Positions 19,164 through 54,792 of a stretch of DNA of 64,000 nucleotides are shown piece by piece. The number at the start of each line of letters is the position of its first letter. The first letter of the stretch is position 1. The DNA is taken from NCBI GenBank assembly GCA_903879915.1, contig CAIRNJ010000013.1, forward strand, positions 833 to 64,832, read 5' to 3'. The notes beneath the pieces are model-generated. The model searched no databases. It was given only the letters and a program-made list of their open reading frames with translations, and was not told the origin of the DNA. This DNA is from an uncultured Elusimicrobia bacterium. Lineage in GTDB: Bacteria > Elusimicrobiota > Elusimicrobia > Elusimicrobiales > UBA9959. Both the position numbers and the translations under genes were made by a program.

Positions 19164-20357
19164 TCAAAGCCATTTTTCTATCTCGGCGTACGGCCTGGAC
19201 AGGGACCAGTAATAGGTCCCGCGCGAAAAGCGGCTCTTTACAAAGCCCTTCTGCGTAAGCCGGGCGGCGGAATTCATCACGGCGTTGCCGTCCGAGCAGT
19301 CCCGGCAGAGCACTATTTTTTTCGACAGCCGCAGCGCCTCCCTGGTCGACGCTTCTTTTTTCAGCCGCAGTATCTCCACCAGGCAGCGCTCGTTGTCCGA
19401 AAGGAAAACCCTGCCGGCGGCCGGAGTATCCCCGGGCCTGCCCGGCGCCTTGACCGGAGCAAACCCGTTCCAGCCGAAAAGTTTCACGTAATTCCGGTCC
19501 GCCCCGCGGCATTTCCCGGCCAGGGCGCAGCGGCGGCAGGGCGGGCCTTTCACCTTGGCCGCGTCGGCGCCGGCGTCCAGGTCGGTGCGCTTCCCGTCGG
19601 GGTCGGTGACCACGGTGTTGAAGGCGTCGAGCCCTATGGCCAGGTTCTCGCGGCCGCTTATGAAGCAGGGCGGGGTGTTCAGGAAAAGTATCTCGCCCGG
19701 CAGGCCCGCTGCCTCCATGGTCCTGACCGCCCTGAGGAAATGCGGGGCGCATTGCGGCAGGCTGACGCCCAGCTTCCCGGCGTTAGCGGCCATGGACCCC
19801 ATATACACGGGATAAATTATGACGAAGTTGGTTATGCCGCGTTCCAGGAAGAATTTTATTATCTCCGGCAGGCGCCTGTAGTTCCGGCGGTTCACCAGGA
19901 TATTGGTGCCGACGCGTATCTTAAGGCGGCGGAGGTGCTCGAGCCCGGCCAGCGCCTTTTTGAAGGCCCCCGGCGCCCCCGTCAGCGCGTCGTGGTCTTT
20001 TTCCCTGTCGGTGGTGAAGGAGAATTTGCAGAAAGTGAGCCCGGCCTTGACCAGGCCGGCGCAGAACGCGGCGTCGGCCAGTTCTATCCCGTTGGTCTGC
20101 ACACGGATAAAATCGAAACCCACCGACTTGCCCAGCGCTATGACCTTGAGTATGTCCGGACGTATAAGCGGCTCCCCGCCGGTCAGGCCCAGTCGGCCGT
20201 AGCCGGCCTTGCGGGCGGCGTAGATATTGCGCGCTATGGCGGCGAACGGGGCGTTGCGCGACTTGTCGAAGCCGCCCTGCGAGCAGAAAAGGCAGCGCGC
20301 GTTGCAGTTATAGTTGAGTATCAGCTCGAAGCATTTTTCGCCGGCGGTCTTTTTCAT
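19164..20357 (-). CDS. radical SAM protein (fam1) with extra C-terminal winged-helix-like domain
   Basis: 397 aa from ATG 20357 (ATGA overlap with upstream stop); CNARCLFC; LTGGEPL; fam1 tail CRRCALAGKCRGADRNYVKLFGWNGFAPVK. A further ~80 aa follows (ERCLVEILRLKKEASTREALRLS...ARLTQKGFVKS), which looks like a wHTH. Confidence 0.7.
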   Translation of the reverse strand: MKKTAGEKCFELILNYNCNARCLFCSQGGFDKSRNAPFAAIARNIYAARKAGYGRLGLTGGEPLIRPDILKVIALGKSVGFDFIRVQTNGIELADAAFCAGLVKAGLTFCKFSFTTDREKDHDALTGAPGAFKKALAGLEHLRRLKIRVGTNILVNRRNYRRLPEIIKFFLERGITNFVIIYPVYMGSMAANAGKLGVSLPQCAPHFLRAVRTMEAAGLPGEILFLNTPPCFISGRENLAIGLDAFNTVVTDPDGKRTDLDAGADAAKVKGPPCRRCALAGKCRGADRNYVKLFGWNGFAPVKAPGRPGDTPAAGRVFLSDNERCLVEILRLKKEASTREALRLSKKIVLCRDCSDGNAVMNSAARLTQKGFVKSRFSRGTYYWSLSRPYAEIEKWL

Positions 20358-21367
20358 ATCACCCCGTGGAGGCGCCGGAATACGGGGCTTGAAAGCCCTG
20401 CTTCGGCCGCGGCCTTCAGCCAGCGCGCGGCTATCTTCCCGGCCGCGGCCTGCCCGGCGGGGACCGGGCCGCCGGCCGGCCTGAACCGCGCCGCCGCCCA
20501 GGGCGCGGCCGGGCACGCGGACTGCGAGGAACTTATGCCGCCGCGCGCGGCCAGCCTGAAGAATTTTTCACGGCCCTTTCCGTCCGCCCCCGCGCGGAAA
20601 GGGCGCAGCATGGCGGCCGGGCCGGAGAGCATCTTATCGCAGGGATAAAAATAGCCGTCGGGCGCCAGCGTCAGGTTGCGGCAGGGCCCCGGCCGGGCGC
20701 CGCCGGAGGCCGCGGCTATCGCTTCGTAGCCGTTGGCGAGTTCCCACAGGCCGCGCCCGCTCCTGAGCCGGACCAGGTACTCCAGCAGCAGGGCTTTCGA
20801 CGAGGCCCGGAGGCGGGCCAGAGCGGCCCCGTCCCAGGCGGCGGTAATGTCCGGGGACCAGGCCACCCGCCCGAAACCCAGGCCGAGCAGGCAAAGGACG
20901 GCGGCGGCAAGTTCCCCCGCGCCGGCCGGGGTAGCCACCACGGCGGCGCTGACCCTTTTGCGCAGGGCGCGCGGGATATTGGCCGCGCCGGTCCGCGCGC
21001 GCCCGGGCACGCCGGGACCGGCCGGACCGAAGCTCACCGTCAGTTTAACCCCGCGCTTAAGGAGTTTTTGCGCCTCCCCTTTTTTCAGCAGGAGGCCGTT
21101 AGTGAAGAGCTGCACGGGCGCGCCGGGGCCGAAAAGTTCTTCTATCCGGGCCAGCGCCGCGTACGCGAGGTCCCTGCAAAGCAGCGGCTCGCCGCCGAGT
21201 ATGGTGAACCGGGGGGCGGCGGGGCGGGCGGCGGCGAAAGCGCCCAGAGCGGCGAAGAGGGCGGCCCTGGAGATGGTGCGCCTGGAGACGCCGGCGGCGT
21301 AGCAGCAGGGACAGGACAGGTTGCAGCGCCCGCTCAGGTAAATTACCAGATGGTCAGGTTTTAGCAT
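20354..21367 (-). CDS. radical SAM protein, anSME-like with partial SPASM/twitch element ('fam2')
   Basis: 337 aa from ATG 21367; CNLSCPCC; ILGGEPL; CRNLTLAPDGYFYPC auxiliary-cluster-like motif. Confidence 0.65.
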   Translation of the reverse strand: MLKPDHLVIYLSGRCNLSCPCCYAAGVSRRTISRAALFAALGAFAAARPAAPRFTILGGEPLLCRDLAYAALARIEELFGPGAPVQLFTNGLLLKKGEAQKLLKRGVKLTVSFGPAGPGVPGRARTGAANIPRALRKRVSAAVVATPAGAGELAAAVLCLLGLGFGRVAWSPDITAAWDGAALARLRASSKALLLEYLVRLRSGRGLWELANGYEAIAAASGGARPGPCRNLTLAPDGYFYPCDKMLSGPAAMLRPFRAGADGKGREKFFRLAARGGISSSQSACPAAPWAAARFRPAGGPVPAGQAAAGKIAARWLKAAAEAGLSSPVFRRLHGVI

Positions 21368-22320
21368 GGTCTTATCCGCGCCGCGGCCGCTGGCTTTTTT
21401 ACGGGTTTGAGCTCGCTGTCGCCGTAATTCTTCAGATACTCCACCCAGATGCCTTCGCACTGGTCATAAAGCAGGCAGCCGCGGCAGCGGGCGGTTTTCC
21501 TGCGGCCCACGGCGGCGCGCGACCCGATGGCGTCGGTGTTGATGAAATCCGGGGCCCAGTGCTCGGTCAGGAAAAGCGTCCGCTCGTTCGTCTCGCTTAT
21601 CTGGTCCAGGCAGTCCCTGAAATGGCAGAGCGGCACGTACCTGGCCTTCCACTGGTCCATGCCGGCGCGCCGCCCGAAGGCCAGCGCGCGCCGCATGAAC
21701 GGCGCGGCTTTTGAAATGCGCGGCACCAGGGCGCTGAAATTCCTCTTCGCGCCGCCGTAATTGGGGTCCACGAAGATATACTCCACGTTGCGCACGCCGC
21801 TGGCGGCGTAGAACCGCGCGAGCTCCGGCAGCGCGGCCAGATTCTGTTTTACCACGGTGGTATTGCCGCTGATCTTTTCGAACCCGAGCGCTTTCAGGTT
21901 TTTCAGCCCTTTCACCAGCTGGGCGAAGCTGCCCGGCACGCGCGTGAGCGCGTCATGCACGCGCGCGCCCGGGCCGTGCACCGAGAAGATCAGCGAATCT
22001 ATGCCGGAAGCGACTATTCGTTTCGCCGCCGCCATGTCGGCGAAGACGCGGCCGTTGGTGGCGCAGGCCACCTCGGCGATGCCGAGTTTTTTAGCGGCCG
22101 CCACCACGCGGCTGAAATCGGGGCGTATGGTGGCCTCGCCGCCTATTATCTCCAGGATGTCGGCGCCCTTGCTCCCGGCCCGCATTATCCCGGCCAGCAG
22201 CTCCGCCGTGCTTTTCTGCGGCAGGCCGCGCTTATCCTCGTCTATGCAGAAGGCGCAGTTGTTGTTGCAGGCGTAGCCGGTGAAGAGGACTATCTTAAGT
22301 TTTTTCCCGTTCTTTTTCAT
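21361..22320 (-). CDS. radical SAM protein (fam1)
   Basis: 319 aa from ATG 22320 (ATGA overlap); CNNNCAFC; IIGGEAT; SVHG; tail CRGCLLYDQCEGIWVEYLKNYGDSELKPVK. Confidence 0.7.
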   Translation of the reverse strand: MKKNGKKLKIVLFTGYACNNNCAFCIDEDKRGLPQKSTAELLAGIMRAGSKGADILEIIGGEATIRPDFSRVVAAAKKLGIAEVACATNGRVFADMAAAKRIVASGIDSLIFSVHGPGARVHDALTRVPGSFAQLVKGLKNLKALGFEKISGNTTVVKQNLAALPELARFYAASGVRNVEYIFVDPNYGGAKRNFSALVPRISKAAPFMRRALAFGRRAGMDQWKARYVPLCHFRDCLDQISETNERTLFLTEHWAPDFINTDAIGSRAAVGRRKTARCRGCLLYDQCEGIWVEYLKNYGDSELKPVKKPAAAARIRPC

Positions 22321-23468
22321 TTCAGCAGCCCCGTCAGGCTGCGGTCCAGCACCAGCAGGAGCACGGCCCCCGCGAAGATCCACAGCGCGAAAGGCCTGCC
22401 GCGCACCGCTTCCACCTTGGCGTCGGGCACGGGCAGGCTCTTCAGCCAGTCCTTCAGTTCCGCCACCTGCTCGACGGTGAGGCCGTCCTTGAAGCAATCG
22501 TCGAAGGCGCCTTCGAAGACCGGGTTGCTCCTCAGGATGCGCGCGGCCTTCGAGGACAGCATCACGCCCGGCTCAAGCTCGCCGGCCGAAAGGCAATACG
22601 TGTCTTTTTTCTCCATCAGGAATTCCAGCATGAACCGCCCGAAGAAAAGCAGCAGGCTGAACGTCAGGACATTGCGAAGGGCCCCGGTGGCGAGCAGCCA
22701 CAGGTGCTCCGGGAAGTAAAAGAACCCGCCGATGAAATACACCGCGTAGCAGACGGCGCTTATGTAAACCCAGCGCCGGCTGCCGAACACGCCCCCGATC
22801 TTGTCCCACAGCATGAACAGGAAGAAGAACAGGATATCGGGGCGGGAAAAGAACCCGCCTATAAAGCCGCGGGCCTCCATGGCGAAGATCTGCTGCAGCA
22901 GGAAAAAGAGGCCCAGGTTGAACAGGCAGGCCGCCGCGGCCAATTTGTTCGTCCCGGCGCTCAGGGCGGACAGGCGCTTCCTGATATCGCCCCAGGTCTC
23001 CGCGAAAAAATCCCCGGGCGAGGCGGAAGCGAACCCGGAAGCGATGAAGCCGCCGAGTATCCACAGCGCGGCCGTCACGAAGATGTTTATCAGCAGGCTC
23101 AAAAAAAGATAGTGCGGGAAGCCGCGCAGGTACGGGTTGGCCAGCGGCAGGGCGGCCGAGACCAGCATGAAGAACTTGGCGTCCCCGGCGGGCCAGATCT
23201 CCGCGTACCAGAGTATCAGCCCGGCCAGCACCGACCAGAAAACGTGCATGGCGAGCAGCAGGTAAAAATAACAGTTCATGAAGCTCTGGGCGCGGCCGGC
23301 GTAGCCGAGCCCGGTGTAGACCGCAAAGGCCGCGAGCGCGGCGGCGAACAGCTTCAGCCCCGTCTTTATGGCGGCGTTGGGGATCTTCCTGGTGGCCAGG
23401 TCGCGGCTTACCACGGAAACCGACCAGGCGGTGAAGGCCGCGAGGAACAGCAGGGACACGCTCTTCAT
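22317..23468 (-). CDS. polytopic membrane protein with N-terminal A24 (prepilin/TadV-type) aspartyl-peptidase-like domain
   Basis: 383 aa from ATG 23468 (ATGA overlap); SRDLATRKIPN and WPAGDAKFFML resemble the two catalytic-Asp motifs (D...IPN; G.GD.KL) of A24 peptidases; many further TM segments and a ~70-aa soluble insert near the C-terminus. Confidence 0.5.
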   Translation of the reverse strand: MKSVSLLFLAAFTAWSVSVVSRDLATRKIPNAAIKTGLKLFAAALAAFAVYTGLGYAGRAQSFMNCYFYLLLAMHVFWSVLAGLILWYAEIWPAGDAKFFMLVSAALPLANPYLRGFPHYLFLSLLINIFVTAALWILGGFIASGFASASPGDFFAETWGDIRKRLSALSAGTNKLAAAACLFNLGLFFLLQQIFAMEARGFIGGFFSRPDILFFFLFMLWDKIGGVFGSRRWVYISAVCYAVYFIGGFFYFPEHLWLLATGALRNVLTFSLLLFFGRFMLEFLMEKKDTYCLSAGELEPGVMLSSKAARILRSNPVFEGAFDDCFKDGLTVEQVAELKDWLKSLPVPDAKVEAVRGRPFALWIFAGAVLLLVLDRSLTGLLK

Positions 23469-24358
23469 CTTCCCACCGGCTTCAGTTCGGCGGCGCCGAA
23501 CAGCTTGTAATATTCGCTCATCAGCCCGAGGCATTTTCTCCTGAGCCGGCAGCCGCGGCAGGCCGCCGGATAGACCCTGTCCTCCGGGGGCAGCGTCACC
23601 CGGCAGAGCGGCCTGAGCTCCGGCCTTACCTGGCAGAGCGGGAAATGGTAAAGCCTGAGGTCGGCGAAGCGCTTTATCAGCGGCAGGGCGGCGTCCACCG
23701 CTGCGGCGGAGGAGGAGAGCTTAAGCCCCACGGAGCGGTGGTTCTCCAGCGACATCCCCTCTATCTCGTAATGGATGGCCGTCACGCGGTAACGCCCGGT
23801 GTCCGGGAAGGTCTTGAGCAGGAATTCCAGCGTTTTGCGGAAATACGGCAGACTTATCTTGTGCAGCACCAGGCGTATCTCCACCCCGAGGCCGGGCCCC
23901 AGCGCGAAAAGGTTCCTGAGCCCGGCCACGGTCTGGGAGAAAGAGCCCCTGACCCCGGCCACGCCGTCGTGCGCGCCGGCCGTCGGGCCGTGCAGGGCTA
24001 TGGCCACGAAAAAAGGCGGCCGGGCGGCCGCGCAGAATTTCTCCGCGAATTTCCTGTCGGCGAAGCGCCGGCCGTTGGAAAGCAGCGTGATGGGCACGCG
24101 CGGCAGGCGGCGGCGGAAATAGGTCAGCAGCGGGAAAAAATCGGGATGGATGGTGGGCTCGCCGCCGGTGAGGCTGACGAAACCGGCGAGGTCCGCGTTC
24201 TTCAGGTATACCGGCCCCTGCCCCCTGAGGTAGCGCTCCATTTTTTCGATCTGCCCTTTAAGCCGGTACTGCGCGGAGTCCTGCCGGGAGAAGGAGGCCA
24301 TGTTGGTGCACATCACGCATTTACTGTTGCACTTGTTCCAGAAAGCTATGTCGGGCAT
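23465..24358 (-). CDS. radical SAM protein, HxsC-like (fam1), directly downstream of an HxsB-like gene
   Basis: 297 aa; CNSKCVMC; LTGGEPT; ALHG; tail CRGCRLRRKCLGLMSEYYKLFGAAELKPV. Confidence 0.7.
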   Translation of the reverse strand: MPDIAFWNKCNSKCVMCTNMASFSRQDSAQYRLKGQIEKMERYLRGQGPVYLKNADLAGFVSLTGGEPTIHPDFFPLLTYFRRRLPRVPITLLSNGRRFADRKFAEKFCAAARPPFFVAIALHGPTAGAHDGVAGVRGSFSQTVAGLRNLFALGPGLGVEIRLVLHKISLPYFRKTLEFLLKTFPDTGRYRVTAIHYEIEGMSLENHRSVGLKLSSSAAAVDAALPLIKRFADLRLYHFPLCQVRPELRPLCRVTLPPEDRVYPAACRGCRLRRKCLGLMSEYYKLFGAAELKPVGR

Positions 24359-24361
24359 AGG

Positions 24362-25801: not shown

Positions 25802-25802
25802 T

Positions 25803-26525: not shown

Positions 26526-26638
26526 TTGCCGCCCGTTGTTTTCCACGCGCTTTTTACCGCCCAGGCCGGCCGCAAGGCCCGCCGCCGCTTTATATTGTAC
26601 TACATTGTTTTTTTGCGGCGGGCGGAAGGCCCGGCCCG

Positions 26639-30923: not shown

Positions 30924-30943
30924 TGCAGCTGTTTTTAACTATA

Positions 30944-35477: not shown

Positions 35478-35567
35478 AATACAATAATATAATAATATGA
35501 GCTTTCGGCATAAGGCCTTCTAATAAAGCCGGGCTGCCGCGGCGGCAGGAATTTGTACAATATTTTC
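35478..35567. promoter_or_regulatory. AT-rich divergent promoter region between the B12-rSAM operon and the polyferredoxin gene
   Basis: Only AT-rich stretch for many kb (aatacaataatataataatatga ... ttgtacaatatttt); small hairpin ctgccg-cgg-cggcag at 35534-35548; exact -10/-35 elements not assignable with confidence. Confidence 0.4.
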
Positions 35568-37165: not shown

Positions 37166-37172
37166 CGCCCGT

Positions 37173-45764: not shown

Positions 45765-45767
45765 AAA

Positions 45768-47965: not shown

Positions 47966-48906
47966 GAGCCCGCCCCGGCGGGGACCGTAAAGCCGGGCAG
48001 CACGAGGGAATTTAAAACGGAAGCCCCGGCCGGAACGCGCCCGCCCGGGAAGACCACCGTGCGCACGAGGCGCGCCCCGGCGCCGGCCGAACCGCCGCGG
48101 GCCACCACGGAACCTTCCAGTTCAACTCCCGCCCCGACCTCGGCCTCCGGGTGCGCGAAACCGGACAGCCCTTTGTCCTCCAGCCAGGCCGCGTTGGCCG
48201 TCAGTATATCTTCCGGGTAGGTGATATTCACGTCCAGTTTGAGCGTTTCCATGGCCTTGACCGTGCCGCCGCCGGCGATAAGCCCCTGTATGGCGTCCGT
48301 AAGCTCTATCTCCCCGCGCAGCGCCGACGGGCGGGTCCGCCCGAGCGCCGCCATGAACCTGGGGCCGAAAAAATATACGCCGCAGGGTTTGACCAGGCTG
48401 AGCGCGCGCGCCGGCTTTTCCACTATCCGGAGCACCGTATCCGCGGCGTCCAGCTCTATCGTGCATTCTTTAAGTATCGCGGCCTCGTCCGCGACCTTCC
48501 TCACGGAGAGCACGGCGTCGGGTCCGCCGCCGCTTATCGCCCGTACCGCGCCGGCCAGGTCCGGCCGGGAGTAATAAGTGTCGCCCAGCACCAGCGCGAA
48601 AGGCCCGCCTTTCACCCAGGGCCCGGCCAGCAGCGCGGCGTGCCCTATGCCCCTGCGTTCGGCCTGGTGGACGACCGCGAGCTCCGCTCCGGAGCCTTCG
48701 AGGGCCCTCCTGGCGGCGCTCTCGACCTCTCCCGACGAAGGGTCGGTCACTATAACGAAAAGTTTCGTCCCGAGGGCTATAAAGACGCGCAGGTGGAGTT
48801 CCAGCAGCGGGCAGTCCCCGACGGGGAGCAGCGCTTTCGGGAAGAGCTTGCCGATTTCGCCGAGCCGCGTGCCGCTGCCGGCGGTCAGGATAACGACCGG
48901 GATCAT
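47962..48906 (-). CDS. sugar-phosphate nucleotidyltransferase with C-terminal left-handed beta-helix
   Basis: 314 aa; MIPVVILTAGSGTRLG...KALLPV signature; C-terminal hexapeptide-like repeats. Confidence 0.7.
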   Translation of the reverse strand: MIPVVILTAGSGTRLGEIGKLFPKALLPVGDCPLLELHLRVFIALGTKLFVIVTDPSSGEVESAARRALEGSGAELAVVHQAERRGIGHAALLAGPWVKGGPFALVLGDTYYSRPDLAGAVRAISGGGPDAVLSVRKVADEAAILKECTIELDAADTVLRIVEKPARALSLVKPCGVYFFGPRFMAALGRTRPSALRGEIELTDAIQGLIAGGGTVKAMETLKLDVNITYPEDILTANAAWLEDKGLSGFAHPEAEVGAGVELEGSVVARGGSAGAGARLVRTVVFPGGRVPAGASVLNSLVLPGFTVPAGAGS

Positions 48907-50264
48907 GAGAGTGTTTTTTCGGCCGCCGAAATGCCGGCCTCTATGCTGTGGTCCATGTTATAAATGGCCCATTCCCCGAAACGCCCGGCGGATATTATGC
49001 CGGCCTCCTCCAGGCGGCGCAGGCAGAACGGCACGTCCTCCCCGTGCCCGGCGTGCGGCACCGGGTATGCCGGGAAATGGTCATAAGCCCGCAGCGTCTT
49101 TATGTCCTTCTTTCTTATGACGCCGAGCTTTACGAGGCCGGCCGTGACGCGCGGGGCCAGGCCCGCCGCGGCGCGGTTCGCCCCGCCCGGGGGCAGGGCG
49201 CATTCCACCAGCAGCGCATGGCCGCCCGGCGCGGCGCCCGGGTTTATCAGGTCCGCGCGGGTGAGGCGGTAGAAAGGCGCGGCCGGGTCCGGCACGTAGA
49301 TCCAGTGATACGGCGGCAGGTTCACCCCGGACAGCACGTATTGCAGGCAGAGCACCCTCGTAGCGCGCAGGCGGGAGGCGGGCCCGGAACATTCCTTAAG
49401 GCCGGCCAGCCGTACGGCCCGGTCCAGCGGCAGCGTGGAGATCAGGCGGCCGTAGCCCACCTCGCCGCGCGACGTGAGAACGGTCTTGCGCCGCGCGTCT
49501 ATTTTCAGCACTTCGGCGCCGCAGACCGGCGCCGCGGGTTTCAGGCTCCCGAGCAGTCCCTCCACCAGCGACTCTATGCCGCCGCGCTTCGGGTAAACGA
49601 ATTCGGCGTGCGGGGCCGCGTCCCCGCGGCCGGCCCGCCGGCCGCCGAGTATGCTGTCGGCCAGGCCGGCGGCTCCGGGCAGGCGTATTTTAGCGGCCAG
49701 CCATTTATGGTCCATGCCGGCCAGCGGCGTCTGCCAGAGCTTCTCGTTGTAAGGCCGGAAGAACAGGTCCGTTATGCCGCCGCCCAGCTCCCGGACGGCC
49801 AGCTCCTCGAGGTTGCGCGGCCCGGCCGGGACGCTTTTAAAACGCGCTTCCAGCAAACCGCGCAGCGCCGTTTTCCTGTCTTCAAGGCCCAGCTGGTGTA
49901 TATTGTCCTGGAAAGGGAAATCCACGTAGCCGCCCTTCCACATTACGCCGAGGCGGTGCCTGTAGCTGTAAACCGGGCCGGCCATTTCCCTGAAGATGGC
50001 GGCGGCGCGTTTATTCCTGGTGAAAAAAACGTGGGGCAGTTCGTCGATCGTCACGCCGGCCGAGCGGTCGGTCTTAAGCAGGCCGCCGGGACGGGGACCG
50101 CGCTCCAGCAGCAGTACGTCCCGCGCTCCGGAGCGCAGCAGTTCCCTGGCCGCTATAAGCCCGGTCAGTCCGGCGCCCAGTATTACGACCTCGGCGCTGT
50201 CAGGCAGGCCGCCGGAACGGTTGATTTTTCGCTTTCTCCCCGTCATTTTAAATAATGTTAGCAA
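48903..50264 (-). CDS. FAD/NAD(P)-binding oxidoreductase (amine-oxidase / UDP-galactopyranose-mutase-like fold)
   Basis: 453 aa; dinucleotide-binding motif VVILGAGLTGLIAARELL...LLLERGPRPGG. Confidence 0.6.
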   Translation of the reverse strand: MLTLFKMTGRKRKINRSGGLPDSAEVVILGAGLTGLIAARELLRSGARDVLLLERGPRPGGLLKTDRSAGVTIDELPHVFFTRNKRAAAIFREMAGPVYSYRHRLGVMWKGGYVDFPFQDNIHQLGLEDRKTALRGLLEARFKSVPAGPRNLEELAVRELGGGITDLFFRPYNEKLWQTPLAGMDHKWLAAKIRLPGAAGLADSILGGRRAGRGDAAPHAEFVYPKRGGIESLVEGLLGSLKPAAPVCGAEVLKIDARRKTVLTSRGEVGYGRLISTLPLDRAVRLAGLKECSGPASRLRATRVLCLQYVLSGVNLPPYHWIYVPDPAAPFYRLTRADLINPGAAPGGHALLVECALPPGGANRAAAGLAPRVTAGLVKLGVIRKKDIKTLRAYDHFPAYPVPHAGHGEDVPFCLRRLEEAGIISAGRFGEWAIYNMDHSIEAGISAAEKTLS

Positions 50265-50450: not shown

Positions 50451-51596
50451 CTACCGGCGTTTCTCCGCCGGCAGGTCCGGATTTTCAAACCCCATCCCCT
50501 CTTCGCGCAGCGCGCGGACGATGTCGGCGCTGCTTTTCAGCAGCGGCTTAAGGCCGCCGCGCTCAAGAAGGTCCTTGTAATAGATACAAAGCAGGCAGGC
50601 GAGGAAAACGCGCTGCCCGCAGGCCATTACGGCCTTGAAAGCCCGCTCCCTCGAAGCGCGTACTTTTTGCAGGTCGAGCCCGGAGCGCCAGTCGCCCACG
50701 GCGTAAACGGCCCGCAGGGCGGGGTCCTGGGCCGCGCGGGAGGCCGAAAGTATGGAGCACGGGTAGAACACCCCGTCGGGGCCTATGGAGACCTCGCCCT
50801 GGGCGCAAAAAGAGTCAAGCCAGGCGCGGCCTTTTTCCAGGCGCTTGTAGCCGAATTTAGGGACCTCCAGGAAGGCGCCGCGGCCGGCGCCCTTGAGATA
50901 GAGCGCCGTCTTGCGCAGCTCACGCCGCAACGCCGCCAGGTCGCGAGCGCTCCACGCCTCCTGCACCGCGAAGGAAAGGCCGAGGTCGCCGGCGCCGAGC
51001 GAAGCCAGGAACCGGACGTTCTCGGCCAGGCGCGGGGCCGTGGTTTTGGTGACCGTGGCGGAAATGCCCAGGGCTTTCCTGGCCTCGGCGGGCAAAGCCC
51101 GGATGTTGCTTATTACCCGCCTGAAACTGGGCCTGCCGCCGCGCATAACCCTGTTCAGGTTCTGGCTGAGGGGCGCGCCGTCCAGGCTGATCTTAAGATG
51201 TACGGCGCTGCGCCTGAAAAGCTCCGCGGTGGGCGCGTCCAGCAGCAGGCCGTTCGAGAAGCACTCGATATCCACCGCCGGGCCCGCCGTCTTCCTGAGC
51301 CAGGGCAGCAGGCCGGCCAGCAGTTTTTTATCCAGCAGCGGCTCGCCGCCGGAAATACTTATCTTCTCCACTTTGCCGCCGCGGGCGGCGCGCAGGTAAT
51401 GCAGCACCGCCAGCTTTATCCGGCGCAGGTCCAGTTTTTGCACGCGGGCGCGGTCGAGATCGCCGGAATAGCAATAGCGGCAGCGCATGTTGCACTGGTT
51501 GGAAACGCAGATATCAAGCTCCGCCGGGAACGCCGGCAGGCGGCCCTGGGCCGCCTGCGCGGGACCGGCTACGGATCTGTGGGCTGGAAATGGCAT
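50451..51596 (-). CDS. radical SAM protein, anSME-like (fam2), last gene of the Hxs-type operon
   Basis: 381 aa; CNMRCRYC; ISGGEPLL; CAQGEVSIGPDGVFYPC partial SPASM. Confidence 0.7.
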   Translation of the reverse strand: MPFPAHRSVAGPAQAAQGRLPAFPAELDICVSNQCNMRCRYCYSGDLDRARVQKLDLRRIKLAVLHYLRAARGGKVEKISISGGEPLLDKKLLAGLLPWLRKTAGPAVDIECFSNGLLLDAPTAELFRRSAVHLKISLDGAPLSQNLNRVMRGGRPSFRRVISNIRALPAEARKALGISATVTKTTAPRLAENVRFLASLGAGDLGLSFAVQEAWSARDLAALRRELRKTALYLKGAGRGAFLEVPKFGYKRLEKGRAWLDSFCAQGEVSIGPDGVFYPCSILSASRAAQDPALRAVYAVGDWRSGLDLQKVRASRERAFKAVMACGQRVFLACLLCIYYKDLLERGGLKPLLKSSADIVRALREEGMGFENPDLPAEKRR

Positions 51597-51691: not shown

Positions 51692-51982
51692 CTAACACCA
51701 GCCGCCCCGGGAGTGCGAGCCGTGGCTGCCGTGGGAACCGTGCGAGGCGTGAGAGCCGTGGGAACCGTGGGAACCGTGGCTCAGGTGGCTGGTGTGGCTC
51801 GTCTCGTTGAAGGCGTTCGTGTGGAACGAGATCGCCGCCGCGTTAGCCTGGTCCGCCATGGCGGCCCCGATGATTCCAAGGGCGAGGCCGGTTTTCACTA
51901 TATCCGCGTCCAGCATCTTTCCCTCTTCGCTGTTGAGAAAGAGTCTTATGTTCTTGCCTGTCCGTGGTTCTTTCTTTTTCAT
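51692..51982 (-). CDS. hxsA: His-Xaa-Ser repeat peptide (HxsA-like candidate precursor)
   Basis: 96 aa; strong SD (GAAGGAG, 6-nt spacer); basic N-terminus, hydrophobic segment TGLALGIIGAAMA, C-terminal SHTSHLSHGSHGSHGSHASHGSHGSHGSHSRGGWC; flanked by HxsB/HxsD-like genes. Confidence 0.6.
   Translation of the reverse strand: MKKKEPRTGKNIRLFLNSEEGKMLDADIVKTGLALGIIGAAMADQANAAAISFHTNAFNETSHTSHLSHGSHGSHGSHASHGSHGSHGSHSRGGWC
51710..51799 (-). repeat. 10 x 9-nt imperfect tandem repeat (gtg-gNN-NNc on the plus strand) encoding the S-H-x repeat
   Basis: His codons (gtg on plus strand) at 51713, 51722, 51731 ... 51794, exactly 9 nt apart. Confidence 0.85.
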
Positions 51983-51993
51983 AACCGGCTCCT

Positions 51994-53022
51994 TCAGTTT
52001 TTTTTGAGAATTTCCCTGACCTTTTTATTGGTCTCGTCTATGGACGTTCTCTCCGCCCTGGACAAGTGGTTGGAGAGGCTCTGGCAATAAGCCTCGCCCA
52101 GCTTTTCAAGGACGCCCGCACAGCCCGCCGGGGATTTCGAGAAGAACGCGCTGCACTCGCCCGCGTACGCTTTCGGACAGGCGGCCCTGTTGCCGTCCTG
52201 GAGGGCGCTGTAAAGCTGAAAATTCTCGACGCATTCCGGATTTTTGCAATCGTCACGGCTGCTGGGGAAGGCCATGCGGCACCTGGCCTTGCTGCTTCCC
52301 GCCTTATCGCAGACCCAGGCGAAACCCTTCGCGGCCTCGCGGCAGAACTCGGGCGGAACGGAGGCGCCGGACACGTTATCCCCGGCCAGGTATTTCCGGC
52401 AGGGCTGTTCGCTTTTATACTTGCCGGCGGCGTAGGCGAAGAACAGCACCCTGGTGGAGGGACCCACGCACTGGTAATTCGGGGAATGGAAATAATTCTC
52501 TTTGCCGCTCTGCGCCCCGGGCAGGAAATTGCACATATCAGGATTGTCGGCGGCCACGGCCTGGCAGGAGAAATACTTCGCCAGCAGGGCGTAAACCGCG
52601 TCGTTCTCGTTCTTATAAAAAGCTTCCGGCCCGGAAGCGGAATAGCCCCAGAGCCTCCCGTGGGAGGACAGGATATCGTTGAGCGACTTGCCGTCGCGGC
52701 AGACCGGGGCGTTCGCGAAATTACTCAGGATGGAGGGCATGGGTCCCTTGCCGGCCATGACCGCCGGGGGAGTGAACCCGCCCTGCATCAAAGGCCGCAC
52801 GAACTGCGCGGGTTCCGCGCCGGAGGCCGCGGGCTGCGCGGACACAGCGGAGTAAGAGGCCGCATCGGCCGGCAGCGGCACCCCGCCCGGCTGGGCCGGC
52901 GCGGCCTGGCCCGGCATAGTCCGGTCCGGCCCGGACGGCGCCGCGTTCTTCCTCTGCATATACTGAAGGAAAAGCAGCACCGCGAGAAGCCCCACTACCG
53001 ATATAATAACTGGCTTTTTCAT
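51994..53022 (-). CDS. Cys-rich membrane-anchored/exported protein
   Basis: 342 aa from ATG 53022 (ATGA overlap with hxsD-like stop); N-terminal TM KKPVIISVVGLLAVLLFL; about 15 Cys in the C-terminal 230 aa. Confidence 0.5.
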   Translation of the reverse strand: MKKPVIISVVGLLAVLLFLQYMQRKNAAPSGPDRTMPGQAAPAQPGGVPLPADAASYSAVSAQPAASGAEPAQFVRPLMQGGFTPPAVMAGKGPMPSILSNFANAPVCRDGKSLNDILSSHGRLWGYSASGPEAFYKNENDAVYALLAKYFSCQAVAADNPDMCNFLPGAQSGKENYFHSPNYQCVGPSTRVLFFAYAAGKYKSEQPCRKYLAGDNVSGASVPPEFCREAAKGFAWVCDKAGSSKARCRMAFPSSRDDCKNPECVENFQLYSALQDGNRAACPKAYAGECSAFFSKSPAGCAGVLEKLGEAYCQSLSNHLSRAERTSIDETNKKVREILKKN

Positions 53023-53336
53023 TGTCCCCTCCCGTTCTTCGCCTGTGTTCTTTCGCCGCAAGCCGACAGCAGCGCCCTGGTGACTATCATACCGGCCAGC
53101 CTGGAATTCTTTTTGGCCAGGTCTATCCTGCACTGCTGGTTCAAAGCCTCGTTGGCCAGTTCCCCGGCCAGGCGCCCGTCCGCGTCCCCGTTCAGCAGCA
53201 CCCGCGTGACCGCCCTGCCCGGCAGCACTTTTACGCGGCATTTCCCGGAGAAAACATAAGCCGCCAGCTCCACGGCTTCCCTCGAATAGACCGCGGCCTC
53301 AAAAACGAGCTCCCTGCCGCTTTTACGCTCTTTCAT
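53019..53336 (-). CDS. hxsD: HxsD-like small protein
   Basis: 105 aa; ELANEALNQQCRIDL resembles the LLNDYxLRE signature I recall for HxsD (TIGR03976); start overlaps HxsB-like stop by 14 nt. Confidence 0.45.
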   Translation of the reverse strand: MKERKSGRELVFEAAVYSREAVELAAYVFSGKCRVKVLPGRAVTRVLLNGDADGRLAGELANEALNQQCRIDLAKKNSRLAGMIVTRALLSACGERTQAKNGRGQ

Positions 53337-54792
53337 TTGTCCTCACCCATTTTTCAAGAATTTCCCTGTCTCCGGCTTTCCTTAGCTTCGAGAAGAGCGT
53401 CCCGAAAACGCCCTTGAAAAGCCTGCACCTGTCGTTCGACCGCATGTTTCCCCAGAGCGAGCCCTGCGACTCGTAGTTATACACCGGGCAGACCCCGCAG
53501 TAGGGCTTATAGGCGCAGCGGGCGCAGTCCGGCTGCGCCTCTAGGTTCGAGGACAGCGAGCAGGCCCTGGCGGCCGGGCTTGAAAGGGCCTGCTTGAAGG
53601 TACTGGTGAAGACGTTGCCCATGCGGAAAATATCGTCGCCTTCCCAGCCCACCATGCGCCCCTCGTCGCAGGTGTAAAGGTCGCCGTTATAGTTATAAGC
53701 TATCTGGCCTATGGCCGCGCCGCAGGGGCCGCGCGCGTCCAGGTAGCCGGGCTCCCGGAAATCAAGGATCTTTTCCAGCATCATGGCCGCCATCTTCTCG
53801 CGTATGACAACGCCGCGGCGGTTCAGCGCTATTATGTAGTCAAGGCACTTCGCGTAAAAATCGGAGAACTCGGCCGGGGTAAAGCCTATCTTTTCCCAGA
53901 GGGTTTTGGCGTAGCCTATGGGGGAGAGCGGCCGTATAAAGATGTCCCCGAAGCCGAGCGCCGCGTACTCGTCGATGATCTCCTTGTGCCTGGAAAGGGA
54001 ATAGCGCGAAACGGTGAGCAGGGCGCTGGGCTTGAAAACGCGGTATTCGGGGACCTGGACCGCGTATCTCTTCCTGAAATATTTTATCCACCTCACCGCG
54101 CCGGCGTGGGAATTGCCGGCGGAGTACACGCGGTTCCTGTTGTGCAGGTCCGCCGGACCGTCCAGCGAGGTGCACAGAGAGACCTCGTTCTCAAGAAGGA
54201 ACCGCGCCTTCTCTTCCGTCATCAGCGTAAAATTGGAGACCAGCGCCAGCTTTAGTTCCTTTTTCGCGGCCGCGGCTTTTTTGCGCGCGTACTTCGTAAC
54301 GGCCTTGAGGACCTCCCAGTTAAGCAGCGGCTCTCCGCCCTGGAACTCTATGGTTATGGCCGGGTTGGGAGAGCTGAAGGCGAAATCCACGCTCCTGAGC
54401 GCGGTCTTAAGCGGCATGTCGGTCTTTTTTGCGCCAACGCCGGCGGCGCTGGACTGGCAGTAAAGGCATTTATGGTTGCACCTGAGCGTGAGGACCAGAA
54501 TGTGCAGCCCGGGGCCCTGGTCGAGGTGCCCGTTGCGGGTCCGCCACTTCGCGGCGAGCCCGTCCAGGTCCATGCGGTCGCGCACGAACCCGCCGGCGGC
54601 GAGGTCCGCGAACAGCGGGTCGCTCTTCGCCAGCCGGCCGCCTATCACGCGCCCGAAATCTTTCTCTTTCAGCCAGGCGTGGCAGCCGGCCTCGTTGGTC
54701 AGCAGGCGGCCGCCTGTCGTCCTTTCCCAGAGCGCCTGCGGCGCGGGCGAGACGGACCTATTTATTTTTTTTCGCGCTTGTTTTGCCGCCAT
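53323..54792 (-). CDS. hxsB: HxsB-like radical SAM/SPASM maturase
   Basis: 489 aa; N-terminal extension; LTLRCNHKCLYC; EFQGGEPLLN; CARCAYKPYCGVCPVYNY; next to His-Xaa-Ser peptide and HxsD-like genes. Confidence 0.7.
   Translation of the reverse strand: MAAKQARKKINRSVSPAPQALWERTTGGRLLTNEAGCHAWLKEKDFGRVIGGRLAKSDPLFADLAAGGFVRDRMDLDGLAAKWRTRNGHLDQGPGLHILVLTLRCNHKCLYCQSSAAGVGAKKTDMPLKTALRSVDFAFSSPNPAITIEFQGGEPLLNWEVLKAVTKYARKKAAAAKKELKLALVSNFTLMTEEKARFLLENEVSLCTSLDGPADLHNRNRVYSAGNSHAGAVRWIKYFRKRYAVQVPEYRVFKPSALLTVSRYSLSRHKEIIDEYAALGFGDIFIRPLSPIGYAKTLWEKIGFTPAEFSDFYAKCLDYIIALNRRGVVIREKMAAMMLEKILDFREPGYLDARGPCGAAIGQIAYNYNGDLYTCDEGRMVGWEGDDIFRMGNVFTSTFKQALSSPAARACSLSSNLEAQPDCARCAYKPYCGVCPVYNYESQGSLWGNMRSNDRCRLFKGVFGTLFSKLRKAGDREILEKWVRTNERA

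What the first reader, a model, noticed from the sequence alone, without database searches (positions are those of the whole stretch)
19164..54792. Three dispersed Hxs-type modules with a recurring gene syntax
Each of the three HxsB-like genes sits with the same partner families. Module A runs 25801 to 19164 in the order HxsB-like, fam1 (HxsC-like), A24-like peptidase, fam1, fam2, fam1+wHTH. Module B runs 42694 to 38041 in the order fam1, fam2, HxsB-like, fam1. Module D runs 55228 to 50451 in the order HxsD-like, HxsB-like, HxsD-like, Cys-rich protein, His-Xaa-Ser peptide, fam2. Canonical His-Xaa-Ser systems, as I recall the TIGRFAM definitions, have one each of HxsA-D. Here the maturase set is triplicated, but only one repeat peptide is evident. 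This suggests either sequential modification of one peptide by three maturase sets or undetected additional substrates.
Basis: partly seen in the sequence, partly recalled or inferred. Interest (0 to 1): 0.78.

Follow-up and report, generated by a model that had tools for sequence, protein, structure and literature searches.

The report
Expanded His-Xaa-Ser peptide maturation cluster
An uncultivated Elusimicrobia bacterium carries one His-Xaa-Ser repeat peptide gene surrounded by about twenty radical-SAM enzyme genes, including three anciently diverged HxsB paralogs. This is a much larger version of the four-gene HXS system that was recently shown to block phage DNA entry in E. coli.

Summary
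All module coordinates match real ORFs. All three HxsB-like genes hit TIGR03978 far above any other family: 482 and 443 bits (above the 370 cutoff) and 305 bits (below it). Six fam1 genes are HxsC-like radical-SAM proteins that share a C-terminal CxxCx5CxG motif. Three fam2 genes are CteB/PapB-like. The window holds exactly one HxS-repeat peptide, which passes the NCBIfam HxsA4 model.

The modules are not three copies of one set.
- The D-type HxsB sits with HxsD, a second HxsD-like gene, a Cys-rich secreted protein and HxsA.
- The A-type HxsB sits with the HxsC ortholog and an A24-like peptidase.
- The B-type HxsB has neither set of partners, and its whole clade lacks three SPASM cysteines.

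Each paralog has its own orthologous clade across Elusimicrobia. In several relatives the three modules form one contiguous same-strand array with a single HxsA. So this is one ancient super-cluster. In this genome it is split by inserted blocks: six B12-radical-SAM genes on one side, and sugar and FAD genes on the other.

Many enzymes acting on one peptide is favoured over hidden substrates. The chemistry and the function are inferred, not shown. I rate it a new variant of a known kind.

The parts
15611..16558 (+).
   Evidence: HxsC4 74.6 bits and HxsC 70.3 bits are its best NCBIfam hits. It carries the fam1 C-terminal signature.
16593..17537 (+). Conserved hypothetical protein with a weak DUF483 match
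   Evidence: Pfam DUF483 22.7 bits, below the gathering cutoff. Orthologs lie in Hxs loci L009 and L013.
17548..19148 (-). Pair of U32-family genes: UbiU-like 18249-19148 and its partner 17548-18249
   Evidence: Pfam Peptidase_U32 49.3 bits. UbiU 51.5 bits, below cutoff. The pair lies 15 bp after module A and recurs in Hxs loci L010, L019, L021, L051 and L060.
19164..20357 (-). A_f1c: fam1 radical SAM with a C-terminal winged-helix domain that has three invariant Cys
   Evidence: AlphaFold2 pLDDT 81.8 (whole protein) and 84.0 (domain alone). Foldseek matches MecI/BlaI, ArsR and MarR with TM up to 0.71.
20354..21367 (-). A_f2: fam2 radical SAM with a degenerate SPASM-like C-terminus
   Evidence: Best NCBIfam hit is PapB-like, 36.9 bits. 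Closest solved structure is CteB.
21361..22320 (-). A_f1b: fam1 radical SAM
   Evidence: HxsC4 148 bits (cutoff 500) and HxsC 79.8 bits. Orthologs reach 85% identity.
22317..23468 (-). Polytopic membrane protein resembling an A24 (prepilin-type) aspartyl peptidase
   Evidence: Pfam Peptidase_A24 20.5 bits, below the 26.5 cutoff. Six of 12 orthologs match weakly. The motifs D-L-x4-I-P-N and W-P-A-G-D-A-K-F are invariant.
23465..24358 (-). A_f1a: the HxsC ortholog
   Evidence: TIGR03977 150.9 bits over profile positions 33-290 of 292, below the 267.9 cutoff. It lies directly after the A-type HxsB in 9 of 11 relatives.
24362..25801 (-). A-type HxsB, with the full set of SPASM cysteines
   Evidence: TIGR03978 442.7 bits. 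Member of the A clade. Cysteines checked.
25803..26531 (-). Dph6-like ATP pyrophosphatase, 1 bp upstream of the A-type HxsB
   Evidence: Pfam Diphthami_syn_2 52.4 bits. TIGR03679 64.2 bits, below cutoff. Spacing.
26639..35477 (-). Six tandem B12-binding radical SAM genes, mostly joined by 4-bp overlaps and co-directional with module A
   Evidence: BchE, HpnR, PhpK and ApyD-like hits, all below cutoff. (25-71% identity between them). (spacing). The block is absent at this position in the closest relative, L036.
35553..36704 (+). NapH/MauN-like membrane ferredoxin, divergently transcribed
   Evidence: TIGR02163 48.9 bits, below cutoff.
37173..37934 (-). Predicted secreted protein at the downstream end of the module B gene string; no family match
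   Evidence: It lies 106 bp after B_f1b on the same strand. An N-terminal signal-peptide-like sequence is visible in the translation. No NCBIfam or Pfam match.
38041..39072 (-). B_f1b: fam1 radical SAM
   Evidence: HxsC4 106.9 bits and HxsC 91.7 bits. 58-60% orthologs lie directly after the B-type HxsB in L018, L019, L021 and L067.
39085..40494 (-). B-type HxsB: keeps the radical-SAM CX3CX2C motif and four auxiliary cysteines, but lacks three SPASM cysteines
   Evidence: TIGR03978 304.5 bits, below the 370 cutoff. No Pfam SPASM hit. The clade-wide cysteine loss is shown.
40491..41567 (-). B_f2: fam2 radical SAM
   Evidence: PapB-like 99 bits, below cutoff. Closest solved structure is CteB.
41564..42694 (-). 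B_f1a: fam1 radical SAM
   Evidence: HxsC4 104.9 bits and HxsC 84.3 bits.
42789..44138 (+). HemN-like radical SAM gene, divergent from module B
   Evidence: STM4012, HutW and HemN-like hits, all below cutoff. Conserved at 71-81% next to B_f1a in L035, L036 and L038.
46499..50264 (-). Seventh B12-radical SAM gene, a sugar nucleotidyltransferase and an FAD oxidoreductase, downstream of module D
   Evidence: The same order is seen in L001 and L002.
50451..51596 (-). D_f2: fam2 radical SAM
   Evidence: PapB-like 100.8 bits, below cutoff. CteB 5wgg 88.9 bits for the fam2 profile.
51692..51982 (-). HxsA4 precursor, 96 aa. It has a conserved FLxSEEGK leader motif, a hydrophobic helix, nine tandem HxS repeats and a C-terminal RGGWC.
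   Evidence: NF038313 63.5 bits, above the 55 cutoff. It is the only HxS run in the window. Leader conservation is shown.
51994..53022 (-). Cys-rich protein with an N-terminal hydrophobic anchor; no family match
   Evidence: no hits. Homologs lie after the D- or E-type HxsB in about 20-25 loci.
53019..53336 (-). Second HxsD-like gene (HxsD2), 105 aa
   Evidence: TIGR03976 30.0 bits, E 5e-7, below cutoff; HxsD_rel 19 bits. Found. Orthologs in many loci.
53323..54792 (-). D-type HxsB, with the full set of SPASM cysteines
   Evidence: TIGR03978 482.1 bits. Pfam SPASM 25.8 bits, above the 21.5 cutoff. Member of the D clade.
54758..55228 (-). HxsD
   Evidence: TIGR03976 40.9 bits, below the 50 cutoff and the only hit. 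It lies upstream of the D-type HxsB in 24 of 25 relatives. The motif LADEKLRE is visible in the sequence.

Best explanation
The region from about 15.6 to 55.2 kb is one lineage-typical, vertically inherited, expanded HXS cluster of Elusimicrobia. It is not three parallel systems. It encodes a single precursor, HxsA4.

HxsA4 has three parts:
- a conserved N-terminal leader, F-L-x-S-E-E-G-K followed by a hydrophobic helix;
- nine tandem His-Xaa-Ser repeats;
- the C-terminal sequence RGGWC.

About twenty radical-SAM genes surround it, together with accessory genes.

**Shown.**
- The three HxsB genes are ancient, non-equivalent paralogs with fixed partners.
  - HxsB-D sits with HxsD, HxsD2, the Cys-rich protein and HxsA.
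  - HxsB-A sits with the HxsC ortholog, an A24-like membrane peptidase, and further fam1 and fam2 genes.
  - HxsB-B sits with fam1 and fam2 genes, and its clade lacks three of the conserved SPASM cysteines.
- In several relatives all of these genes form one contiguous same-strand array with a single HxsA.
- In this window the genes are packed with 4-bp overlaps into three co-directional strings.

**Inferred.**
- The enzymes act in the cytoplasm on the one HxsA4 precursor, which is recognised through its leader.
- The HxsB paralogs, the HxsC-like enzymes and the fam2 enzymes install different modifications, or act at different sites, on the His/Ser repeats and the C-terminal aromatic residue.
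- The B12 and HemN-like radical-SAM enzymes, the U32 pair and the Dph6-like enzyme add methylation, hydroxylation and amidation-type steps.
- The A24-like peptidase, or signal peptidase, removes the leader.
- The product ends up in the cell envelope, by analogy with E. coli HxsA. There it could act against phage DNA entry or serve another envelope or metal-related role.
For: **Family identity and counts.**
- The window holds exactly one HxS peptide.
- No credible extra small ORFs lie in the nine intergenic gaps longer than 60 bp, apart from HxsD2.
- There are exactly six fam1 signatures.

**Paralogs are ancient and non-equivalent.**
- An NJ tree of 102 HxsB sequences gives separate A, B and D clades, plus a fourth 'E' clade.
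- Neighbour statistics differ by clade.
- Orthologs of each fam1 and fam2 gene are up to 58-85% identical, against 23-37% between the window's own paralogs.
- The three missing cysteines are absent in 18/18 B-clade sequences and present in every A, D, E and other sequence (84 in all). They are also absent in all of the roughly 73 database homologs that are at least about 41% identical to the B-type.

**One cluster rather than three.**
- Contiguous D-B-A arrays with one HxsA occur in L014, L071, L016, L074, L020 and L052.
- PhoH sits a few genes upstream of HxsD-HxsB in 14 loci, usually with the p55k homolog between them.
- 4-bp overlaps and gaps of at most 107 bp run from B12_6 down to the U32 genes.
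- B12-radical-SAM genes recur next to HxsB in other lineages: L023, L031, L053, L058, L064 and L070.

**Substrate recognition and processing.**
- The leader motif is invariant in 49/50 precursors from several phyla.
- The A24-like protein keeps both catalytic-Asp motifs.

**Precedent.** E. coli HxsB, HxsC and HxsD are all required for processing of one HxsA, and the processed periplasmic HxsA carries a site-specific modification (PMC13128918).
Against: - No chemistry was observed. Every substrate assignment rests on gene context.
- HxsC and HxsD score below their equivalog cutoffs, and fam1 is far below the HxsC4 cutoff.
- The six-B12 block is absent at this position in the closest relative (L036), so it may belong to a different pathway.
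- HxsA4 lacks the peptidoglycan-binding domain and the basic residues of E. coli HxsA, so the envelope or anti-phage role may not carry over.
- The conserved chromosomal position next to housekeeping genes is unlike a typical defence island.
- The Cys-rich protein and other secreted proteins in the cluster could be additional substrates.
- The NJ tree has no bootstrap support values.
- The promoter and terminator scans were uninformative.
Confidence: 0.6

Rival explanations
1. There are three independent Hxs-type systems. Each has its own substrate, and two of the substrates are not HxS repeats or were missed.
For: - The modules lie 12-13 kb and 8 kb apart in this window.
- HxsB aligns to CteB from profile position 51, well ahead of its radical-SAM motif near position 105, so some N-terminal domain is shared. 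I infer, but did not test, that this region could bind a leader peptide in each paralog.
- A 90-aa ORF with high GC3 lies in the gap at 36893-37165.
Against: - No second (HxS)>=3 ORF exists in any frame.
- Genes within the modules overlap or sit at most 12 bp apart, which leaves no room for a peptide gene.
- Among 28 orthologs of A- and B-type HxsB, none has an HxsA within 3 kb or an HxsD upstream.
- In relatives the three modules are contiguous with a single HxsA.
Confidence: 0.1
2. A recent block-wise triplication of one Hxs maturase set produced redundant copies.
For: The same three protein families recur: HxsB three times, fam2 three times and fam1 six times.
Against: - The paralogs are only 40-49% (HxsB), 23-37% (fam1) and 25-28% (fam2) identical.
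- Each paralog has much closer orthologs in many genomes.
- Gene order and content differ between the modules, and module D has no fam1 gene.
- The closest pairs do not agree between families: HxsB A pairs with D, whereas fam1 A_f1c pairs with B_f1a.
- The B clade has lost three conserved cysteines.
Confidence: 0.03
3. It is one cluster with several protein substrates. Some of the paralogous enzymes, especially the CteB/PapB-like fam2 genes and the B-type HxsB, act on the Cys-rich secreted protein or on other secreted proteins encoded in the cluster, rather than only on HxsA4.
For: - The Cys-rich protein is conserved between the D- or E-type HxsB and HxsA in about 20-25 loci.
- A fam2 gene often follows directly after it (L001, L002, L010, L017, L023).
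- The closest solved relative of fam2 is the thioether-forming enzyme CteB.
Against: - The Cys-rich protein is 342 aa and has an N-terminal hydrophobic membrane-anchor-like segment, so it is probably exported. It shows no leader like the HxsA leader.
- fam2 genes also occur in modules A and B, away from the Cys-rich gene.
- There is no direct evidence either way.
Confidence: 0.2

Closest known systems
Canonical HXS anti-phage system of E. coli and Klebsiella (HxsD-HxsB-HxsC-HxsA; TIGR03976-03979; Li et al. 2026, PMC13128918)
   Same: - Both have a His-Xaa-Ser repeat protein, an HxsB-family radical-SAM maturase, an HxsC-like radical-SAM enzyme and a small HxsD protein.
- HxsD lies directly upstream of HxsB.
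- The precursor has an N-terminal hydrophobic, signal-like segment.
   Different: - This window has three HxsB paralogs, six HxsC-like genes, three extra SPASM-like enzymes, two HxsD-like genes, an A24-like peptidase and a Cys-rich protein. It also has eight further radical-SAM genes.
- HxsA is a 96-aa peptide with no peptidoglycan-binding domain. Its nine repeats are mostly HGS rather than basic.
- The HxsC ortholog is 29 kb from HxsA, beside a different HxsB.
- HxsC and HxsD fall below their equivalog cutoffs.
- The locus is syntenic across Elusimicrobia. Li et al. instead describe signs of transfer between enterobacterial genera, report 99.7% of systems in Pseudomonadota, and find more than 99.8% with four genes.
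NCBIfam type-4 models: HxsA4 (NF038313), HxsC4 (NF038332) and HxsD_rel (NF038315)
   Same: The peptide passes the HxsA4 cutoff (63.5 bits against 55). HxsC4 is the best-scoring family for five of the six fam1 genes.
   Different: The fam1 genes score 75-148 bits against a cutoff of 500, so none is HxsC4 itself. HxsD2 scores 19 bits against 41 for HxsD_rel.
CteB (PDB 5wgg; SCIFF thioether maturase) and anSME (4k36-4k39), both SPASM-domain radical-SAM enzymes
   Same: These are the closest solved structures to HxsB (101.6 bits) and to fam2 (88.9 bits). The A- and D-type HxsB keep the full set of SPASM cysteines.
   Different: The B-type HxsB lacks three SPASM cysteines, and fam2 has a degenerate C-terminal cysteine pattern. 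The substrate is a His/Ser repeat, not a Cys-rich peptide.
Multi-radical-SAM RiPP pathways such as the proteusins (polytheonamide), in which B12-radical-SAM C-methyltransferases and other radical-SAM enzymes act repeatedly on one precursor. This comparison rests on my own knowledge.
   Same: Many radical-SAM genes, including several B12-binding ones, surround one precursor gene.
   Different: The enzyme families and the precursor class are different. No nitrile-hydratase-like leader is present. Nothing about the chemistry was tested here.

Membership tests
HXS system (TIGR03976-03979; PMC13128918) | A protein with tandem His-Xaa-Ser repeats (HxsA) | tested here: met
   There are nine tandem HxS repeats at 51716-51796. 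HxsA4 NF038313 scores 63.5 bits, above the 55 cutoff. The canonical HxsA model TIGR03979 gave no hit at E<=0.01.
HXS system | HxsB radical-SAM maturase at or above the TIGR03978 cutoff of 370 bits | tested here: met
   24362-25801 scores 442.7 bits and 53323-54792 scores 482.1 bits. The third copy, 39085-40494, scores 304.5 bits, which is below the cutoff although HxsB is still its top family.
HXS system | HxsC radical-SAM maturase at or above the TIGR03977 cutoff of 267.9 bits | tested here: not met
   The best score is 150.9 bits, for 23465-24358, aligned over profile positions 33-290 of 292. The other fam1 genes score 70-92 bits.
HXS system | HxsD small protein at or above the TIGR03976 cutoff of 50 bits, with the LLNDYxLRE motif | tested here: not met
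   Scores are 40.9 bits (54758-55228) and 30.0 bits (53019-53336), and TIGR03976 is the top hit for both; the second ORF also has a weak HxsD_rel match (19 bits). HxsD keeps L-A-D-E-K-L-R-E. HxsD2 has L-A-N-E-A-L-N-Q instead (sequence).
HXS system | [quoted passage not shown] | tested here: not met
   The order here is HxsD-HxsB-HxsD2-CysRich-HxsA-fam2. The HxsC ortholog lies next to a different HxsB 29 kb away (paper).
HXS system | HxsA carries a peptidoglycan-binding domain and acts in the periplasm against phage DNA entry | not testable with these tools
   The 96-aa peptide has no room for such a domain, and no domain hit was found. Function cannot be tested in silico. PADLOC-DB 2.0.0 gave no specific match to any component, only weak generic radical-SAM (viperin) hits.
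HxsC4 (NF038332) | Score at or above 500 bits | tested here: not met
   The six fam1 genes score 63.5-148 bits.
SPASM-domain radical SAM | CX3CX2C motif plus the C-terminal cysteines Cx9-15Gx4C ... Cx2Cx5Cx3C ... C | tested here: met
   The A- and D-type HxsB keep all of these cysteines. The B-type lacks those at D-type positions 357, 375 and 435, in 18/18 clade members and in about 73 database homologs. Pfam SPASM scores are 25.8 bits for D, 16.2 for A and no hit for B. So the feature is met for A and D and not met for B.
Peptidase A24 (prepilin peptidase family) | Pfam PF01478 at or above 26.5 bits, with two catalytic Asp motifs | tested here: inconclusive
   Scores are 20.5-20.7 bits, and 6 of 12 orthologs match at E<=0.01. 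D23 in D-L-x4-I-P-N and D96 in P-A-G-D-A-K-F are invariant. There is no sequence match in the PDB.
Winged helix-turn-helix fold (C-terminus of 19164-20357) | H-S-H-H-S-S topology with structural matches to known wHTH proteins | tested here: met
   AlphaFold2 gives pLDDT 84 for the domain. Foldseek matches MecI, BlaI, SqrR and MarR with probability 1.00 and TM 0.54-0.71. Sequence-only searches were not significant.

The most novel reading that the evidence does not exclude
Elusimicrobia, and in simpler form several CPR lineages, vertically inherit a radical-SAM 'assembly line' of up to about 20 enzymes. It converts one His/Ser-repeat peptide into a very heavily modified envelope molecule, metallophore or cofactor-like product.

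In this reading:
- three sub-functionalised HxsB paralogs take part, one of which has lost an auxiliary Fe-S site;
- a prepilin-peptidase-like protease cleaves a pilin-like leader;
- a diphthamide-synthase-like amidating enzyme acts on modified histidine.

The system would then be a housekeeping pathway from which the four-gene proteobacterial anti-phage HXS system is a reduced offshoot, or the reverse.
Probability: 0.3. Interest if true: 0.85.

Novelty: new variant of a known kind. Interest (0 to 1): 0.64.

Why it matters
HXS was given a function only in 2026, as a block to phage DNA entry. That paper described it as an almost purely proteobacterial, invariant four-gene system whose radical chemistry is unsolved.

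This locus shows a second, much more elaborate radiation of the same system in Elusimicrobia and CPR bacteria. It is conserved in chromosomal position, and its HxsB paralogs have a clear division of labour.

It gives enzymologists natural 'dissected' versions of the pathway. There is an HxsB paired with HxsD and HxsA, and another paired with HxsC. One HxsB clade lacks the conserved SPASM cysteines and the others keep them. These could help work out what HxsB and HxsC each do.

It also raises the question of whether HxS-repeat peptides have roles beyond phage defence.

Tried and rejected
- **Exact-sequence lookup.** The D-type HxsB is not on record in the assembly index.
- **Promoter and terminator scans.** Over 17-57 kb, counts were near the shuffled background and nearly all sites were intragenic. 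They could not define operon boundaries (searches failed on range limits).
- **PADLOC.** No HXS model exists there; only generic viperin-type radical-SAM similarity was found.
- **Sequence-only identification of the A_f1c C-terminal domain.** The best hits were eS10 and ArsR at E of about 0.1-0.4, which is not significant. This was resolved by structure prediction instead.
- **PDB profile search for the A24-like family.** No match.
- **The nitrogenase-paralog radical-SAM loci of groundwater Elusimicrobia (Meheust et al., 10.1101/765248).** I considered them and rejected them as the same thing. That paper does not mention His-Xaa-Ser, and I recognised no NifHDK-like gene among the window's ORFs (ORF lists).
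- **Module-wise duplication.** Rejected (see the rival explanations).
- **fam1 and fam2 trees.** I did not build them. At 23-37% identity an NJ tree would not be reliable, so I compared ortholog and paralog identities instead.
- **A reverse test.** Starting from distant fam1 homologs and asking whether HxsB is nearby was not run.

Full report
**1. What is there**

The window is 64 kb at about 65% GC. It comes from an uncultivated member of the Elusimicrobia.
- The best database matches to its HxsB genes are 97-60% identical. Every hit that carries a source name is from an Elusimicrobia metagenome-assembled genome.
- The flanks encode BamA-, Skp- and PhoH-like proteins by my reading of the translations.
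- The closest assembled relative is 'Elusimicrobia bacterium CG1_02_56_21' (contig MNUR01000077.1; loci L001 and L036), at about 80% protein identity.

Every coordinate in the finding matches an ORF.

**2. Family assignments**

*HxsB.* All three HxsB-like genes have TIGR03978 as their top family by a wide margin.

| Gene | TIGR03978 (cutoff 370) | Runner-up family |
|---|---|---|
| D-type, 53323-54792 | 482.1 bits | 132 bits |
| A-type, 24362-25801 | 442.7 bits | 141 bits |
| B-type, 39085-40494 | 304.5 bits | 96 bits |

It does not.

*HxsA.* The 96-aa ORF at 51692-51982 passes the curated HxsA4 model, at 63.5 bits against a cutoff of 55.

*HxsD.* HxsD (54758-55228) scores 40.9 bits against TIGR03976. 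A second HxsD-like ORF (53019-53336) was recovered in the gap analysis and scores 30.0 bits. TIGR03976 is the top hit for both, and both fall below its cutoff of 50; the second ORF also has a weak HxsD_rel match (19 bits).

*fam1.* This family has six members.
- All six share a CNxxCxxC radical-SAM motif and four further invariant cysteines. Three of these lie in a C-terminal CxxCx5CxG...Y...G motif.
- That signature occurs exactly six times in the six-frame translation of the window.
- Their best families are HxsC4 and HxsC, all below cutoff.
- One member, 23465-24358, aligns along the whole HxsC model at 150.9 bits, so I treat it as the HxsC ortholog.
- The closest solved structures are BlsE, GDGT-MAS, SkfB, PqqE and MoaA.

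*fam2.* This family has three members. Each has a radical-SAM core with a degenerate SPASM-like tail. They are closest to PapB-type maturases and to CteB.

*The 'A24-like' protein.* It is below Pfam's threshold (20.5 bits against 26.5). It does keep both aspartate motifs of that family, and they are invariant in 12 orthologs.

*The 'wHTH'.* The C-terminal domain on 19164-20357 is confirmed. AlphaFold2 gives an H-S-H-H-S-S domain at pLDDT 84. Foldseek matches it to MecI/BlaI, ArsR and MarR folds with TM up to 0.71. The domain also has three invariant cysteines.

*Total.* Counting the seven B12-binding radical-SAM genes and one HemN-like gene, the stretch from 15.6 to 54.8 kb holds 20 radical-SAM genes. 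By inspection of the translations, all keep an intact CX3CX2C motif.

**3. Is there a hidden substrate?**

- A six-frame search for three or more tandem HxS units finds only the HxsA4 gene.
- With refined gene starts, only nine intergenic gaps exceed 60 bp. The only ORFs in them that have both a ribosome-binding site and high GC3 are HxsD2, part of a glycosyltransferase gene, and one unexplained 90-aa ORF at 36893-37165.
- Inside the modules, neighbouring genes overlap by 4 bp or lie at most 12 bp apart.

**4. Comparative genomics**

A scan of one genome per species returned 77 HxsB loci. Most are from Elusimicrobia. Others come from CPR groups, Deltaproteobacteria, Myxococcales, Omnitrophota and Spirochaetes. 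I mapped the window's proteins onto these loci with tblastn and ORF-by-ORF blastp. Three results stand out.

*(i) Three deep HxsB clades.* An NJ tree of 102 HxsB sequences places the three window genes in three separate deep clades. Each clade holds orthologs from many genomes. A fourth Elusimicrobia clade ('E') is absent from this window.

*(ii) Each clade has its own conserved neighbours.*

| HxsB clade | HxsD upstream | HxsA within 3 kb downstream | HxsC ortholog next gene |
|---|---|---|---|
| D-type | 24/25 | 15/25 | 1/25 |
| A-type | 0/11 | 0/11 | 9/11 |
| B-type | 0/17 | 0/17 | 0/17 |

*(iii) The modules are contiguous in some relatives.* In L014/L071, L016, L074, L020 and L052 the gene sets form one same-strand array with a single HxsA. 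The order is HxsD, HxsB-D, HxsD2, (CysRich), HxsA, (fam1/fam2), HxsB-B, fam1, HxsB-A, HxsC, A24-like, then further fam1 genes with, in several of these loci, a fam2 gene.
- At least nine assemblies carry all three types.
- Others carry D plus B, or D plus the HxsC/A24/fam1 string with an E-type system nearby.

*Further points.*
- The upstream synteny with PhoH, usually with the p55k homolog directly before HxsD, is seen in 14 loci. This argues for vertical inheritance.
- Orthologs of each fam1 and fam2 gene are up to 58-85% identical. The window's own paralogs are only 23-37% identical to each other.
- The modules are not copies of one another, and 'dispersed' is a derived state.
- Relative to the closest genome (L001+L036), this window has an extra block between modules B and A: six B12-radical-SAM genes, a NapH-like ferredoxin and a secreted protein.

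**5. A new detail on the B-type HxsB**

- All 18 B-clade sequences lack cysteines at the positions matching D-type residues 357, 375 and 435. All 84 A, D, E and other sequences keep them.
- The CX3CX2C motif and the cysteines at 423, 426, 432 and 456 are universal (one 'other'-clade sequence lacks Cys432).
- The loss holds for all of the roughly 73 database homologs that are at least about 41% identical to the B-type. It matches the absence of a Pfam SPASM hit.
- By comparison with SPASM enzymes such as anSME, the missing residues are three of the ligands of the first auxiliary cluster. That comparison rests on established knowledge and was not tested here.
- A separate group of proteins that sources name HxsB, for example one from Rhodospirillales, also lacks them.
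- Li et al. describe E. coli HxsB as having two Fe-S cluster domains.
- So the full-SPASM A- and D-types, not the B-type, may be the unusual ones relative to the canonical system.

**6. The precursor**

Fifty HxsA precursors from the loci share a nearly invariant F-L-x-S-E-E-G-K motif (49/50). It is followed by an amphipathic and hydrophobic helix, then the repeats.
- Eighteen precursors end in RGGWC, as the window's does.
- Most of the others end in an aromatic residue (GSY, GQW and similar).
- The leader layout is a charged N-terminus, a conserved Gly and then a hydrophobic helix. It recalls Flp/Tad-type prepilins, and an A24-like peptidase is encoded in the cluster.
- Cleavage at that Gly is my inference and is not shown. 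The leader motif also occurs in lineages where no A24-like gene lies within 10 kb.

**7. How it probably works**

In the experimentally studied E. coli system, HxsB, HxsC and HxsD are all needed to process one HxsA, and the processed periplasmic HxsA carries a site-specific +8 Da change in an HxS repeat. HxsC binds HxsD, and the product acts in the periplasm (PMC13128918).

By extension, and given the context evidence above, I propose the following.
- The window's enzymes form one maturation pathway for HxsA4.
- HxsB-D, with HxsD and HxsD2, handles the precursor first.
- HxsB-A with the HxsC ortholog, HxsB-B, the extra HxsC-like enzymes and the fam2 enzymes then install further or site-specific modifications.
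- The co-transcribed B12-radical-SAM, Dph6-like and U32 (UbiU-like) genes plausibly add methyl, amide and hydroxyl groups.

What is shown: the families, the paralogy, the contexts and the single precursor. What is inferred: every enzymatic step, the order of steps, the export and the biological role.

The anti-phage role may not carry over. HxsA4 has no peptidoglycan-binding domain and its repeats are not basic. The locus also behaves like a core chromosomal feature rather than a mobile island.

**8. Novelty**

- The HXS system, HxsB and even the HxsA4 peptide class are already known to curators and, since 2026, to experiment.
- I found no description of a multi-HxsB, roughly 20-radical-SAM architecture, of its conservation across Elusimicrobia, of the division of labour among the HxsB paralogs, or of the B-clade cysteine loss.
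- Li et al. report 99.7% of systems in Pseudomonadota and more than 99.8% with four genes.
- I therefore rate this a new variant of a known kind, of moderate-to-high interest.

Noticed in passing
window 17548-19148 (-), with 15611-17537 (+): A pair of U32-family genes, one of them UbiU-like (51.5 bits, below cutoff), lies 15 bp downstream of module A. Beyond it, on the + strand, lie a DUF483-like gene and the sixth fam1 gene. U32 pairs recur inside Hxs clusters of relatives (L010, L019, L021, L051, L060). UbiU, UbiV and TrhP are oxygen-independent hydroxylases, which hints at an anaerobic hydroxylation step.
   Followed up: partly
window 25803-26531 (-): A Dph6-like (diphthine-ammonia ligase family) ATP pyrophosphatase ends 1 bp before the A-type HxsB start. 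Diphthamide is a modified histidine, and the substrate here is histidine-rich. Homologs lie in some related Hxs loci (L036 79%, L051 42%, L018 32%).
   Followed up: partly
window 26639-35477 (-): Six tandem B12-binding radical-SAM paralogs are joined mostly by 4-bp overlaps. Two of them (28072-29508 and 34029-35477) are 71% identical, which suggests a recent duplication. The block is missing at this position in the closest relative (L036).
   Followed up: partly
window 55277-55963 (-): A 228-aa protein with an N-terminal hydrophobic segment, an LTLTTYYPAPYGGY motif and a C-terminal ...MICCNLW has no family match. Homologs sit directly upstream of HxsD in most Elusimicrobia loci, sometimes in two copies (L003).
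   Followed up: partly
window 36893-37165 (+): A 90-aa ORF with a ribosome-binding-site-like sequence and GC3 of 0.86 lies in the 468-bp gap after the NapH-like gene. It overlaps a 132-aa ORF on the opposite strand. It is unannotated and unexplained.
   Followed up: no
loci L022, L027, L029, L030, L033, L034, L045: A fourth Elusimicrobia HxsB clade ('E') is absent from this window. It has its own Cys-rich protein and an HxsA ending in GSY, and no HxsD upstream. It often sits on the same contig as a D-type locus that lacks an adjacent HxsA.
   Followed up: partly
HxsA precursors in loci L001-L076 and window 51692-51982: Almost all HxsA precursors end in an aromatic residue (…GSY, …GQW, …GSW, …GAW) or in RGGWC. 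This suggests the C-terminus is itself a modification or recognition site.
   Followed up: partly
window about 2000-8000: This is a lower-GC stretch (51-55%, against about 65% elsewhere). It holds a truncated Y2-type transposase (6670-7341), a Pol-beta-type nucleotidyltransferase with an HTH domain (5216-5842) and a CsgG/LpoB-like lipoprotein (2401-3588). It may be an acquired island.
   Followed up: no
window 9816-12844 (-): DsbD (GC about 72% locally) and a TlpA/AhpC-like thioredoxin-fold protein with DUF3738 make up a periplasmic thiol-reduction pair. They lie a few kilobases from a cluster that encodes a Cys-rich secreted protein.
   Followed up: no
window 44121-46502: The mechanical ORF for the membrane and beta-propeller protein (- strand) overlaps a GT2 glycosyltransferase gene (45663-46502, + strand) by more than 100 bp. 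The true start of the former is uncertain.
   Followed up: no
proteins P0340, P0344, P0352 and similar: A group of proteins that their sources name HxsB (the one with an organism name is from Rhodospirillales) lack the same three SPASM cysteines as the Elusimicrobia B-clade, and also Cys207. They are no closer to the B-type than to the A- or D-types (34-37% identity). This suggests independent loss, or an ancestral state with one auxiliary cluster.
   Followed up: partly
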